Source of the DNA: Eledone cirrhosa
Taxonomy: Eukaryota
Direction: 5' to 3'
Length of the DNA stretch: 64,000 nucleotides
NCBI GenBank assembly: GCA_964016885.1
Contig: OZ024743.1
Location: 258,354,001 to 258,418,000 of the forward strand
The notes below the pieces were generated by a model. That model searched no databases and had not been told where the DNA came from. It was given only the letters and a program-made list of their open reading frames with translations. This document shows, in pieces, positions 1,778-6,720 of the stretch (positions are counted from its first letter, which is position 1; every line of letters starts with the position of its first letter). A program made the translations under genes and the position numbers.

Positions 1778-1948
1778 AGACTATCCCAGGTTCTATTGAG
1801 GATAACAACCGTGAGTAAAGTACTCAATACATAGTTGAGTATATACAATATTTAATATAGAAATGGCTTTTACAGGACTAGAACTGTTTCATTCGAAGGA
1901 AATAGTTCTAGTTCTGTAGAAGCCATTTCTATATTAAATATTATATAT
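1778..1948 (-). mobile_element. PLE-derived fold-back mini-element with 3' half of a hammerhead
   Basis: Near-perfect palindrome 1847-1942 centred on TTCGAA, ~70 bp unique extension on the left, microsatellite flanks; minus strand reads GAAAC-AGTTCTA-GTC. A related fragment lies at ~350-400. Confidence 0.6.
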
Positions 1949-2004
1949 ATATACATACACATACAATGCAGACACACACACATATATATATATATATATA
2001 TATA

Positions 2005-2185
2005 ACGAATGAGATGTGGTAAGGAACCAGGTGGACCATAACGCACCAAAGTACTCAATACTTGAGGTAGTAGAGTGGGTAATAGGAACCAGTAAGACCC
2101 CGACAGCTGAGCTCAAGCCGTTTCGACGGCTAATTAGCCGTCGAAACGGCTTGAGCTCAGCTGTCGGGGTCTTACTGGTTCCTAT
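2005..2185 (-). mobile_element. Fold-back mini-element in (TA)n with perfect 104-bp palindrome (copy 1)
   Basis: 2082-2185 is a perfect palindrome centred on TAA|TTA; each arm contains GAAACGGCTTGAGCTCAGCTGTC (HHR GAAA, stem III, GUC); (TA)n on both sides; second copy at 6514. Confidence 0.75.
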
Positions 2186-3051
2186 ATATATATATATATA
2201 TATATATATATATATATATATATATATATGTATGTATGTATGTATATATATATATATACATATATACACACACATGGGGAGAGAATGAGAGACATGCATA
2301 TATGTATATATATGAGGGAATCACCTGCTATTCTGGATTTTTAATTTAGTTCTGAATTTGTACAGAAATACCTAATCCACATACAAATTAACAAATTCAC
2401 CTCCACATACAGCCATCTCTCTCAGAGAAGGCACACACACACACACACACATATATGTATATATATATATTCATATATATAGACAAGCATATAGATGCAC
2501 ATGTATTTATATGCATGTCACTATACAAGTACCACATGCACTACATGTATGTATAGATGCAATTATACTATCGTATGTATATATATATATATAGATGTGT
2601 GTGTATATATATATACATTCACACAGAAACACACACATATATATATATACACACACACACACACACACTCACTCATACACACATGAATGCTTTAACATGC
2701 ATTCTGTTCCAACGAAACGTATGTTTGCAAATGAATTCATTGATTGAATTTATTCCTTCAAAAAACCAAAAACAACAACATCGAAAAACATTTTAATTTG
2801 GAAAGAAAAACCATGTAAGAATGCAATAATATCAAGAACAATTTAAAATCAAATTAAATGTATTGAAGACGAGTACATTAAATTTAGTTTTGCTATAAAA
2901 TCTAAAGAAAACGATAATTTATGGCAAACATTTAGTTATTAAGCAGCTGTTTTTCTCCTTGCTAAATTCCAAAATTAGTTTTGTTTTAGTTTTGTGATAG
3001 AGAATTCTACATTGAACGTTTGTCATTTGTCTCGTTAACATTTATATTGTA

Positions 3052-3434
3052 TTATATATATATATATAGTATTATATAATATAATATACATTTCATACTA
3101 TATATATGCATATATTTAAATGAATATATATGTATATATATGTATATATATATATATATATATATATATATATATATATATATATATATATATATATATA
3201 TATATATATATACATATATATATATACATATATACATATATATATAATATATATATACATATATATATATATATATACATATATATATATATATATACAT
3301 ATATATATATATATATATATATATATATATATATATATATATATATATATATATATATATATATATATATATATGTGTGTGTGTGCGTGTGTGTGTGTGT
3401 GTGTGTGTGTGTGTGTGTGTGTGTGTGTGTGTGT
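3052..3434. repeat. (TA)n then (TG)n microsatellite
   Basis: Direct reading of the sequence. Confidence 0.95.
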
Positions 3435-3558
3435 AGGAGGTGAGTTTTATTGTAGTACAATAAAGCAATGCAGATATCGGATAAGTAGCACTCTACAGTT
3501 TGTAGGACTGGAGTATAAATAATATATAAGATCAAAAGATGATTAAAAGAGTTCCATG

Positions 3559-3629
3559 TATTTTATTATGCGCATTTCAAAAATAAATATCATCATGCAA
3601 TAAGATTTGCCTTTTCGTCAGATATAATA
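3559..3629 (-). ncRNA. Type I hammerhead ribozyme (left-arm copy)
   Basis: Minus strand: stem I, CTGACGA, stem II, GAAA, palindromic stem III ATGCGCAT, cleavage triplet ATA, then ATAAAATA. Confidence 0.65.
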
Positions 3630-4297
3630 GGGAGACATGATATGAAGGTTAAAAAACACTTGTGAATAGTGCAGTTTTAAATCAACATATGAAAAGTAGT
3701 TTCAGATTGATGTGTGATATTGTGAAAAAAATGAGGGGGGGTGGAAAGGATGAAAAAGAGGAGGAGATGAGAGTAAAAAGTGGAGGGGGAGGAGTATAAT
3801 GAGGAAGGATGAGATAGGAGGAGAGATAGGTGATAGAGAGAGAGAGATAGCTTTTATAACTGAGAAAATATATTGTTTTACATAGAGAGGTTAAAAAAAA
3901 CCGTTGGAAGATAATATATAAATTAAAAGAATTTGAAAATTAACGAAGAGAAAAATTTTAGAATAATGTTAAATTAAGTTTGTATATTGAAGGGTTTAAT
4001 AATATGTGCGATGGAAAGAAATTGTTGATATGTATTATTAAAAAATATAAAAATATAACAATAGTAATGTAATTAAGGATATATTGTGAAAAGAAGTAGA
4101 AGAGTGGATGAATAAGTGTAATATGTATTAGTTAGATGAGCATGAAAGGGGGAAAAAATAATGAATTGAGGATGAATAATCTAACGTCAAAAAAAATGTT
4201 TATGTTAATGAAGGTTTTTTTCAAGGTGATATTATGAAGTAAGGATATATTGTGCTGAGTAATAATGAGAATTGAGAATTGAGAATTGAGAAGTATC

Positions 4298-4567
4298 TAT
4301 AAATACCAACTTAAAAGAACCAACATGGCACTCTCAGAACTCATATGGTCCTTGAAAGACAAAAATATTAACTATAACATCTCTTGGAAGAAGGTTTGTT
4401 CTGCTTCTCCATACCTGAATGGTTCTCTATCCAAGACATGCAATCTCTGTTTATGTTAAAAATTTACCATTATATCTAATTTAGATTCTATAATAAATAG
4501 ACGCACTGACTTGTTTTCTCTCTGCTTGCATAAATTCCACAGAACATTCCATAAAGTATACAGCTAA
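4298..4567 (+). pseudogene. C-terminal fragment of PLE GIY-YIG endonuclease
   Basis: Manual translation ...[30 protein letters not shown]...[13 protein letters not shown]...INRRTDLFSLCLHK..., matching the PLE pattern LS..IW.LK / C.LCL.EK / N.R.E...C.H, with a stop in place of the conserved Glu. Confidence 0.8.
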
Positions 4568-5546
4568 TATCTAATACTTTACCAATTTAAAATCCTTTTC
4601 TCAAAGGCACATATATATATATATATACATATATATTTCTTTAAAAATATACCCATCTTTCTACCTTATTTCAATGTTATTTATTATACATTATATAATA
4701 CTAGTTACTCATTCTATATCACTCCTATTTATCACTTCCCTTTCTTTCTCTTTTCCTTTTTTCTTTTCTTTTTTTCTTTTTCTTTTAATTTCTAACCTCT
4801 AATCTGTACCTTTTCTTCCTAGATACTTCTAAATTCTCATTATTACTCAGCACAATATATTCTTACTTCATAATATCACCTTGAAAAAATCCTTCGTGAA
4901 GATAAACATTTTTTTTGACGTTAGATTATTCATCCTCAATTCATTATTTTTTTCTCCCTTTCATGCTCATCTAACTTATACATATTACACTTATTCATCC
5001 ACTCTTCTACTTCTTTTCATAATATATCCTTAATTACATTACTATTGTTATATTTTTATATTTTTTAATAATACATATCAACAATTTCTTTCCATCGCAC
5101 ATATTATTAAACCCTTAAATATTATTCTTAATACATATTAACAATTTCTTTTCATCGCACATATTATTAAACCCTTCAATATACAAACCTTAATTTAACA
5201 TTATTCTAAAATTTTTCTCTTCGTTAATTTTCAAATTCTTTTAATTTATATATTATCTTCCAACAGTTTTTTTTAACCTCTCTATATAAAACAATATATT
5301 TTTCTCAGTTATAAAAGCTATCTCTCTCTCTCTATCACCCATCTCTCCTCCTATCTCATCCTTCCTCATTATACTCCTCCCCCTCCACTTTTTACTCTCA
5401 TCTCCTTCTCTTTTTCATCCTTTCCAACACCCCCCCCCCCCTCAATTTTTTCCCAATATCACACATCAATCTAAAACTACTTTTCATATGTTGATTTAAA
5501 ACTGCACTATTCACAAGTGTTTTTTAACCTTCATATCATGTCTCCT

Positions 5547-5617
5547 TATTTTATCTGACGAAAACGCAAATGTTATTGCATGATGATATTTGTTTTTGAA
5601 ATGGGCATAATAAAATA
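5547..5617 (+). ncRNA. Type I hammerhead ribozyme (right-arm copy)
   Basis: TATTTTAT-CTGACGA-AAACGCAAAT...ATTTGTTTTT-GAAA-TGGGCA-TA-ATAAAATA; the 8-bp stem I closes the core. Confidence 0.7.
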
Positions 5618-5671
5618 CATGGAACTCTTTTAACCATCTTTTGATCTTATATATATATATATATATATATA

Positions 5672-6024
5672 ATTTCATTTCATTCATTTCATTTCATTTC
5701 ATTTTACGTCCGCTTTTCCCTGCTTGCAAGGGTGGGACGGGAACTGATTCTGGCTTGATTTCTACAGCTGGATGCCCTTCCTAACACCAACCTCATTTAC
5801 AGTGAGTGCTGGGTGCTTTTTTGCCATGGCACCTCCAAGACCACTTTACAGTGGAATGAGATGGGCCCCAGTCCCTATCATCTCATTTCCACAGCTGAGT
5901 AAACTGGAGCAATGTAAAATAAAGTGTCTTGCACAAGGAAACAACACATCATCCAGCCTGAGAGTTGAACTCACAACCTTTCGATTGCAAGGCCAATGCA
6001 CTAACCACTAAGCCATGTGCCTCC
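5672..6024 (-). mobile_element. tRNA-derived SINE
   Basis: Minus strand has A box TGGCTTAGTGG, B box GAGTTCAACTC and a (TGAAA/TGAA)n tail; close to the copy at 7798-8153. Confidence 0.85.
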
Positions 6025-6308
6025 ATATATATATAGTATAAAATACATTTTATACTATATATATATATATATATATATATATATATATATATATATATAT
6101 ATATATATATATATATATATATATATATATATATATATATATATATATATATATATATATATATATATATATATATATATATATATATATATATATATAT
6201 ATATATATATATATATATATATAATATATATATATATATATATATATATATATATATATATATATATATATATATATATATATATATAATTATATATATA
6301 TATATATA
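6025..6308. repeat. Long (TA)n microsatellite
   Basis: Direct reading of the sequence. Confidence 0.95.
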
Positions 6309-6477
6309 GTGGTTTAACATTGGAAGGTAATATCTGTAATGGTAGAACACTCAGTGCATGGGACGAGTTAGGTAGAAGTGGTTACACATACCGAGAACAA
6401 TTGTTTCACCTTAACGGATCCTAAGGTGAAACAATTGTTCTCGGTATGGTGAACTAACTGTTGTGTAACGACTTCTA
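6309..6477 (-). mobile_element. Fold-back mini-element in (TA)n
   Basis: Inverted repeat 6373-6477 (TACCGAGAACAATTGTTTCACCTTA/TAAGGTGAAACAATTGTTCTCGGTA, 8-nt loop); GAAAC-AATT-GTT resembles a palindromic HHR stem III; left extension. Confidence 0.65.
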
Positions 6478-6513
6478 TATATATATATATATATATATAT
6501 ATATATATATATA

Positions 6514-6720
6514 ACGAAGGAAATGTGGTAAGGAACCAGGTGGACCATAACGCACCAAAGTACTCAATACTTGAGGTAGTAGAGTGGGTAATAGGAACCA
6601 GTAAGACCCCGACAGCTGAGCTCAAGCCGTTTCGACGGCTAATTCTGGACTGAATTAGCCGTCCAGAATTAGCTGTCGAAACGGCTTGAGCTCAGCTGTC
6701 GGGGTCTTACTGGTTCCTAT
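6514..6720 (-). mobile_element. Fold-back mini-element (copy 2 of the 2005-2185 family)
   Basis: Same extension and arms as copy 1; the centre keeps a 12-bp hairpin GACGGCTAATTC-TGGACT-GAATTAGCCGTC (6634-6663). Confidence 0.75.

What the first reader, a model, noticed from the sequence alone, without database searches (positions are those of the whole stretch)
1778..6720. Palindromic mini-elements whose symmetry axis lies in hammerhead stem II
Seen: four short (TA)n-embedded palindromes (1847-1942, 2082-2185, 6373-6477, 6591-6720) carry GAAAC-[stem III]-GT(C/T) in their arms next to the axis but no CTGAnGA. In the 6514 copy the left arm runs through a full 12-bp hairpin (6634-6663) directly abutting GAAA before turning back. 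Established: PLEs carry type I HHRs and often have inverted 5' segments. Inference: reverse transcription stalls at stem II, the cDNA snaps back on this hairpin and primes its own second strand. The ribozyme fold would then act as a second-strand primer, producing MITE-like elements from a retroelement.
Basis: partly seen in the sequence, partly recalled or inferred. Interest (0 to 1): 0.85.

Follow-up and report, generated by a model that had tools for sequence, protein, structure and literature searches.

The report
Twin-primed Penelope retroelement mini-palindromes
These short palindromes are head-to-head pairs of truncated copies of a ribozyme-bearing Penelope-like retrotransposon, present more than ten thousand times in this genome, and they likely form when the element primes two DNA copies at once from two fixed start sites on opposite target strands, not by folding back on the ribozyme.

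Summary
The four palindromes are real. They belong to three families of Penelope-like elements (PLEs) with Hydra-clade motifs (10,709, 32,066 and 6,823 exact motif hits). Parents carry a type I hammerhead motif; the parent of the two copies at 2005 and 6514 has a U3-A8 core, not CTGAnGA.

The snap-back model fails. The 12-bp hairpin is junction filler, not stem II. Predicted snap-back junctions occur 0 and 1 times against 10,629 palindromes. In two of the three families the axis usually lies beyond stem II.

Each insertion pairs an arm ending at site A (with tail) with one ending at site B (98 of 105; never A+A). The B arm often reaches further 5' than the A arm, so neither arm can simply be a copy of the other. 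Best reading: twin priming from the two internal RT start sites shown in vitro for another PLE. The 5' ends pile up about 30 nt behind TATA-like boxes in two families, likely the RNA 5' end (no RNA evidence). They are not MITEs.

Inverted PLE ends, tails and junction palindromes are published; the A+B coupling rule was not found in my searches.

The parts
1778..1898 (-). Copy 1 (family F1), arm ending at site A with tail; hammerhead G12 at 1890; 5' end 8 nt upstream of G12
1899..1942 (+). Copy 1, arm ending at site B into (TA)n; starts at G12 (GAAAC mutated to GAAAT)
2005..2135 (-). Copy 2 (family F2), site-A arm with 80-nt tail; G12 at 2124; 5' end at -11
2132..2185 (+). Copy 2, site-B arm; G12 at 2143; 5' end at -11; 4-nt overlap (AATT) with the other arm
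3435..4278 (-).
   Evidence: 88% inverted match 3514-4278 to 4827-5663
4279..5654 (+). Same insertion, site-B-type arm, about 545 nt longer at its 5' side; endonuclease C-terminus 4289-4549; hammerhead-like core CTGACGA at 5555
   Evidence: (tblastn E 1e-10); hammerhead stems read by eye
6309..6421 (-). Copy 3 (family F3), site-A arm with tail and an internal deletion; G12 at 6407; 5' end about -14
6421..6475 (+). Copy 3, site-B arm; G12 at 6428; 5' end about -7
6514..6651 (-). Copy 4 (family F2), site-A arm with tail; G12 at 6633; 5' end at -18
6652..6663 (+). Templated junction filler (extra copy of -12..-1) that makes the 12-bp hairpin; joins the B arm through GTC
   Evidence: parent sequence
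6661..6720 (+). Copy 4, site-B arm; G12 at 6678; 5' end at -17

Best explanation
Each palindrome is one insertion of a Penelope-like element with Hydra-clade motifs, made of two 5'-truncated copies joined head to head, and likely arises by twin priming: the RT-endonuclease would nick both strands of a (TA)n target and prime one cDNA at start site A and one at start site B, with both likely stopping at the RNA 5' end inside or just before the hammerhead. Shown: the parent PLE, the fixed A and B ends, the A+B pairing, the clustered 5' ends and the heterogeneous junctions. Inferred: two priming events on one RNA (or two RNAs of one source locus); end joining with 0-2 nt overlap or filler; run-off at a transcription start about 30 nt behind a TATA-like box (about 50% for this last step). 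The hammerhead is a bystander landmark, not a primer, and the products are most likely dead ends.
For: Parent L031: 719-aa RT plus C-terminal GIY-YIG ORF between two hammerhead-bearing repeats, with an inverted A-ended copy upstream; homologous ORF pieces lie upstream of F1, F3 and F4 arms. End pairs: A+B in 62 of 64 (F2), 19 of 21 (F1), 17 of 20 (F3); 7 called B+B, 0 A+A. Of 44 clean F2 junctions, B reaches further 5' in 13, A in 9, 22 within 2 nt; in 7 the A arm stops before G12; 25 have at most 1 nt overlap and 12 have filler. Long examples: A arm 37 nt with B arm over 1.3 kb (L218; also L220, L235, L237, L043) and window 3435-5654. Arms share subfamily letters more than shuffled partners (F1 1.76 vs 7.99 mismatches; F2 0.95 vs 2.96). 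Arms that cross the stem II loop have partners that also cross: 24 divergent pairs among 100 listed hits; among 46 loci read, 19 partners long, 5 stopped early, 1 in the -1..-22 zone, 21 without a partner. 5' modes: F2 -18/-17 (16 of 49 B arms), 29 nt behind TATTTAAA; F1 -25/-24 (11 of 34), 30 nt behind TATAAATA. Opening cost at these stops is at most 0.2 (F2) and 1.0 (F1) kcal/mol while 4-6 kcal/mol sites are passed. In vitro another PLE cuts and extends both strands from two internal sites that define the tail (PMC11167929).
Against: No RNA evidence for the start sites. A cap-derived G was not shown (2 of 5 fillers next to -18 end in G). F3 ends are dispersed (G12 distance 20-90) with no clear TATA at the right distance, and its arm concordance is weak (2.60 vs 3.13). 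In F2 the stop zone -1..-22 coincides exactly with the 3' strand of stem II, and a few F4 arms stop in their long stem II, so structure may contribute. Arm lengths are correlated (rho 0.46, n 37) and one-sided deletion of palindrome centres after insertion could create B-longer cases from fold-backs. Templated fillers show that local fold-back synthesis does happen at some junctions. In PMC11167929 start sites did not differ between strands, so strict A+B coupling is not shown in vitro. Samples come from the first part of one contig and were picked by motifs near G12. Rfam found no hammerhead in the parents.
Confidence: 0.72

Rival explanations
1. Twin priming as above, but the 5' ends are set by RT stalling in RNA structure (stem II in F2, the 5' edge of the hammerhead fold or a bound protein in F1, F3, F4) on a longer RNA, the second RT stopping behind the first.
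For: F2: 44 of 49 B arms end on the 3' strand of stem II and none in -23..-61 outside the loop-selected loci. 1,986 hits cross the loop against 10,709 that reach G12 (patterns differ in length). In F1 the limit -25 is also the first base of stem I. Two or three of 14 close F4 pairs turn in stem II (read by hand).
Against: Only 3 of 49 stops lie in the lower, GC-rich helix; predicted opening cost is near zero at the modes; no single hammerhead landmark fits all families; most F4 arms pass 26-39 nt stems.
Confidence: 0.25
2. One reading: one cDNA stalls at stem II, snaps back on that hairpin and primes its own second strand; the B end arises later by nuclease trimming.
For: F2 axes lie in stem II (median -15.5); cDNA of stem II can fold (-7.7 kcal/mol); some junctions hold templated inverted filler; arms share subfamily letters.
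Against: Native-hairpin centres: 0 and 1 against 10,629, and that one has the loop in the B arm. B exceeds A in 13 of 44; most junctions lack the pairing a fold-back needs. F1 and F3 axes are mostly outside stem II.
Confidence: 0.05
3. Self-priming on an antisense RNA, as proposed for head-to-head Penelope junction palindromes in Adineta (PMC3846280), followed by deletions at the centre.
For: Explains head-to-head geometry and arm concordance; published for the same kind of structure.
Against: One arm should be contained in the other, but A has the tail and B often has more 5' sequence; sense-strand initiation at two sites was later shown in vitro.
Confidence: 0.08
4. MITEs moved by a DNA transposase, or fold-back artefacts of sequencing or assembly.
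For: Short, high-copy, inverted-repeat elements in TA context.
Against: Termini are unequal (tail); 53 of 64, 21 of 21 and 19 of 20 centres differ; parents encode RT; fixed A and B ends into (AT)n appear as loose ends in contigs of public runs X1 and X4, and run X5 holds a palindromic contig.
Confidence: 0.03

Closest known systems
Hydra clade of C-terminal EN+ Penelope-like elements (PMC8557442; section 11 and passages read)
   Same: Single ORF, C-terminal GIY-YIG, RWR for RWK, DKT, CxCx5C linker, CxxC and CxH around E/N, (TA)n targets, hammerhead in the pLTR, inverted 5'-truncated copy, tail at one end.
   Different: Unit is 3.1-3.5 kb (described as under 3 kb), tail 65-80 nt (described 30-40), very high copy numbers, and most insertions are 130-210 bp palindromes. 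The paper ascribes tails and inversions to endonuclease resolution.
PAc (Poseidon, Anolis) in vitro mechanism (PMC11167929; main text read)
   Same: Cuts and extends both strands of AT-rich DNA; two internal RT start sites downstream of the hammerhead define the tail; uncleaved RNA is the template; predicted dimer.
   Different: Does not discuss inverted insertions and saw no strand difference in start sites; here genomic copies pair A with B almost strictly.
Head-to-head pLTRs with junction palindromes in Adineta vaga Penelope (PMC3846280; passages and Discussion read)
   Same: Same geometry; palindromes at the junction; TATA-like box 20 bp before an initiator-like motif in the pLTR.
   Different: Explained there by self-priming on antisense RNA; few copies; no ORF-less mini-palindromes at scale.
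Minimal PLE hammerheads incl. the U3-A8 variant (PMC4209133; Results and Discussion read)
   Same: U3-A8 core, unpaired base at the start of stem II, palindromic loop III; dual motifs on opposite strands 100-700 bp apart were noted.
   Different: F2 has a 54-nt stem II holding a TATA-like box and a longer stem III; the palindromes keep only the 3' half of the motif.
L1 twin priming (recalled, not read here)
   Same: Both target strands prime cDNAs that are then joined, giving an inversion.
   Different: In L1 the second primer anneals upstream on the RNA so the two pieces do not overlap; here both cDNAs start at fixed sites and cover the same stretch.
MITEs; non-LTR retrozymes (10.64898/2026.07.22.740005, first fifth read)
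   Same: Short non-coding high-copy repeats; retrozymes also derive from PLE pLTRs.
   Different: No terminal inverted repeats or shared centre; no tandem units with complete hammerheads.

Membership tests
Hydra-clade PLE (parent L031) | Single ORF with RT and C-terminal GIY-YIG endonuclease | tested here: met
   719-aa ORF with YRDD and YIGLT; atlas neighbours carry GIY-YIG and RVT_1; Pfam gave 0 families
Hydra-clade PLE (parent L031) | RWK and DKT motifs, CxCx5C linker, CxxC and CxH around E/N | tested here: met
   RWR, DKT, CNCPDRSIC, CNLC, CKH read against the definition; F3-linked ORFs likewise
Hydra-clade PLE (parent L031) | Insertion into (TA)n; tail at one end; inverted 5'-truncated copy | tested here: met
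Hydra-clade PLE (parent L031) | Length under about 3 kb (descriptive: 'generally short') | tested here: inconclusive
   Repeat spacing 3,118 bp in L031 and about 3,540 bp in a tandem array, slightly above the described range
Hydra-clade PLE (parent L031) | Phylogenetic placement with Hydra RTs; absence of the CCHH motif | not tested
   no reference proteins in session; no tree built
Type I hammerhead ribozyme (parents) | Core CUGANGA or U3-A8 variant, GAAA, stems I-III, NUH site | tested here: met
   descriptor search: F2 TTGAnAA, F1 and F3 CTGAnGA; position 7 varies; F1 stem I changes on both sides between subfamilies
Type I hammerhead ribozyme (parents) | Covariation support for F2 stems | tested here: inconclusive
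   5 sequences, 94% cells paired, 0 double changes
Type I hammerhead ribozyme (parents) | Match to an Rfam hammerhead model | tested here: not met
   0 hits; none among the 150 of 183 rows listed
Type I hammerhead ribozyme (parents) | Self-cleavage | not testable with these tools
   needs an in vitro assay
MITE | Terminal inverted repeats at both ends | tested here: not met
   one end carries a 65-80 nt tail
MITE | Homogeneous copies amplified from a founder | tested here: not met
   53 of 64, 21 of 21, 19 of 20 distinct centres
MITE | Target-site duplication | not testable with these tools
   (TA)n flanks hide it; no empty sites examined
Non-LTR retrozyme | Tandem units each with a complete hammerhead | tested here: not met
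   palindromes lack the core; contrast family F5

The most novel reading that the evidence does not exclude
PLE integration is an obligatory coupled twin-priming reaction: one RNA engages both RT sites of a dimer, one at site A and one at site B, so the tail measures their spacing and every insertion is a head-to-head A+B pair. Priming at the copy of A/B nearest the RNA 5' end yields tens of thousands of mini-palindromes whose centres record the element's transcription start at base resolution; in F2 that promoter sits inside the ribozyme's stem II, so the 5' ribozyme is never transcribed whole.
Probability: 0.4. Interest if true: 0.78.

Novelty: new variant of a known kind. Interest (0 to 1): 0.55.

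Why it matters
How PLEs make their inverted ends and tails is an open question; papers offer endonuclease resolution or antisense self-priming. Young, very abundant mini-insertions give a genome-scale readout that favours coupled twin priming and predicts exact results for the existing in vitro system. It also warns that such palindromes will be mis-annotated as MITEs or miRNA hairpins, and they put tens of thousands of near-perfect hairpins into one genome.

Tried and rejected
DNA similarity search of the own genome returned nothing (very common words are skipped), so exact patterns were used. Rfam: only sub-threshold miRNA-type hits in the window, none in parents. Pfam: none for the ORF. RNA search: no RNA holder listed, so start sites could not be tested; contigs cannot show starts. 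Cap-G test inconclusive. Arm extents against pooled subfamily references over- or under-ran, so I relied on the reference-free G12 distance and single-subfamily walks. One search's script had an off-by-one error; one search replaces it. In one search, 9 of 58 arms had no A partner found and 5 of 49 were dropped because the walk broke in the tail. In one search the A-arm class ending 3' of +43 is inflated by subfamily mismatches and was not used. An octopus repeat annotation (PMC13282606, passages) lists PLEs and MITEs but has no word 'hammerhead'; the host was only guessed from composition and not tested. Earlier scan notes: none. Supplements of the PLE papers were not opened; Hydra consensus files there could already show such pairs.
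Full report
Observation. The window is G000:C4:258354001-258418000 of a 3.0-Gb assembly. A scan for non-simple palindromes found the four named ones plus one at 8912-8969; shuffles give perfect arms of 7-12 bp at most (30 shuffles). None of the four holds CTGAnGA. Positions below are counted from hammerhead G12 (the G of GAAAC).

Families and parents. Exact motifs give 10,709 hits for F2 (copies at 2005 and 6514), 6,823 for F3 (copy at 6309) and 32,066 for F1 (copy at 1778), with 0 for reversed controls. 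A gapped pattern counts 10,629 F2 palindromic cores. Locus L031 holds an F2 parent: a 719-aa ORF (L031:5079-7238) with RT and C-terminal GIY-YIG between two repeats, plus an inverted copy upstream. Its motifs RWR, DKT, CxCx5C, CxxC and CxH match the Hydra clade as defined in PMC8557442. Pfam gave nothing; atlas neighbours are unnamed clusters at 0.99 and GIY-YIG/RVT_1 clusters at 0.96-0.97. Homologous ORF pieces lie upstream of F1, F3 and F4 arms in several of 11 loci fetched. No tree was built.

Hammerheads. A descriptor search finds complete type I motifs in parent-like copies. F1: CTGATGA, 12-nt stem II, GTA site, stem I varying on both sides between subfamilies. F3: CTGAnGA, 11-nt stem II, GTT site. 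F2: TTGAnAA, the U3-A8 variant described in PMC4209133, with a 54-nt stem II and GTC site. Position 7 and the unpaired base after G10.1 vary while the core does not, but five sequences give no double changes and Rfam finds nothing. Activity is untested.

The 12-bp hairpin is not stem II. In copy 4 the left arm runs to -18, then 12 nt of inverted -12..-1 follow, then the right arm starts at -17 through a shared GTC. Snap-back on the native stem would leave the native 5' strand and loop at the centre. The pattern for the whole stem has 0 matches and that for the upper hairpin 1; in that copy the loop belongs to the tail-less arm, which cannot have templated the tailed one. These patterns test one subfamily in fixed registers.

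Two fixed 3' ends. F2 arms end at +42 (site B) or +122 (site A), both straight into (TA)n; contigs of public runs X1 and X4 show the same loose ends, depth falls about eightfold across -19 in X1, and run X5 holds a palindromic contig, so this is not an assembly artefact. Among 105 head-to-head pairs under 140 nt, 98 are A+B, 7 were called B+B and none A+A. The A arm has the tail, so it cannot be copied from B. In 13 of 44 clean F2 junctions B reaches at least 3 nt further 5' than A (A further in 9, within 2 nt in 22), and in 7 A stops before G12; 10 junctions are blunt, 15 share 1 nt, 7 share 2 or more, 12 have filler (58 arms examined, 9 without a partner found, 5 dropped). Long cases pair a 37-89 nt A arm with B arms of 0.1-1.4 kb or a tandem (L218, L220, L235, L237, L043), and the window's own insertion at 3435-5654 has a B arm about 545 nt longer. 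Secondary one-sided deletion could make some of these, which is the main caveat. Arms of one element share subfamily letters (F1 1.76 vs 7.99 mismatches when shuffled; F2 0.95 vs 2.96; F3 2.60 vs 3.13), and 53 of 64, 21 of 21 and 19 of 20 centres differ: each copy formed on its own, from one template or one source locus. This fits PMC11167929, where a PLE protein cut and extended both strands from two internal sites bounding the tail and used uncleaved RNA. Here too arms cross the cleavage site freely.

What sets the axis. The reference-free distance between the two G12s puts the median axis at -15.5 (F2, n 58), -22.5 (F1, n 20, range -18 to -29.5) and -27 (F3, n 18). Only F2 turns in stem II. 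In F2, 44 of 49 B arms end at -22..-1, 41 at -22..-11, mode -18/-17 (loci chosen by motifs near G12, loop-selected loci left out); 1,986 hits cross the loop. In F1, 27 of 34 short arms end at -15..-26, 11 at -25/-24 (a few belong to other subfamilies). Both modes start at an A lying 29-30 nt behind a TATA-like 8-mer, in initiator-like contexts (recalled consensus); a TATA-like box 20 bp before an initiator-like motif was noted in Adineta pLTRs. Predicted opening costs at the modes are low while stronger sites are passed. Crossing arms have crossing partners: 24 divergent pairs among the 100 listed, and of 46 loci read, most picked as unpaired, 19 had long partners, 5 early stops, 1 a stop in the zone and 21 no partner. 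This shows a shared template state but does not separate run-off from a stall on a shared RNA. Against run-off: no RNA data, no clear cap G, dispersed F3 ends, and some F4 stops in long stems. I put run-off at about 50%, structure at about 25%.

Prior art. Inverted 5'-truncated copies and one-sided tails (PMC8557442), junction palindromes read as antisense self-priming (PMC3846280) and opposite-strand hammerhead pairs (PMC4209133) are published. Searches for twin priming, head-to-head palindromes, or two start sites with inversions in PLEs listed no paper making the A+B argument; the library lacks most subscription papers and I did not open supplements.

Verdict. A new variant of a known structure whose statistics make the PLE integration mechanism testable. 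Interest 0.55.

Noticed in passing
window 3435-5654: Long head-to-head PLE insertion of a further family inside the finding's span: tailed arm left, longer tail-less arm right, endonuclease end and hammerhead-like core.
   Followed up: partly
window about 12715-13090 and 28385-28650: Two more palindromic insertions of family F4 (10,341 motif hits) whose arms pass a 26-39 nt stem II and turn upstream of a complete CTGATGA core.
   Followed up: partly
window 10996-12030: 442-bp tandem repeat with a CTGACGA hammerhead motif per unit; 27,147 motif hits, often in 420-500 bp tandems: a retrozyme-like family.
   Followed up: partly
window 8912-8969 and on to about 9230: 25-bp-arm palindrome next to (TA)n followed by sequence that by eye resembles the end of a GIY-YIG domain (recalled resemblance); nested inverted arms also at 8549-8846.
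   Followed up: no
window 49900-64000: 18-bp satellite array, about 786 copies, strong strand skew, running off the window end.
   Followed up: no
window 5714-6020 and 7798-8117: Two 95% identical SINE-like repeats in inverted orientation flanking copies 3 and 4.
   Followed up: no
tails of F1, F2, F3, F4 (e.g. window 2049-2061, 1819-1831): The 65-80 nt tails of different families share a short CTCTAC...GAGT/CAC-type motif, a candidate protein-binding site between the two start sites.
   Followed up: no
L303:911-3511; L046:5421: Long copies that continue into the ORF also have 5' ends just upstream of G12 and are joined to a short inverted arm.
   Followed up: partly
G000:C1:91473193-91493782: Five F2 units in tandem at about 3,543 bp spacing followed by an inverted unit.
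   Followed up: no
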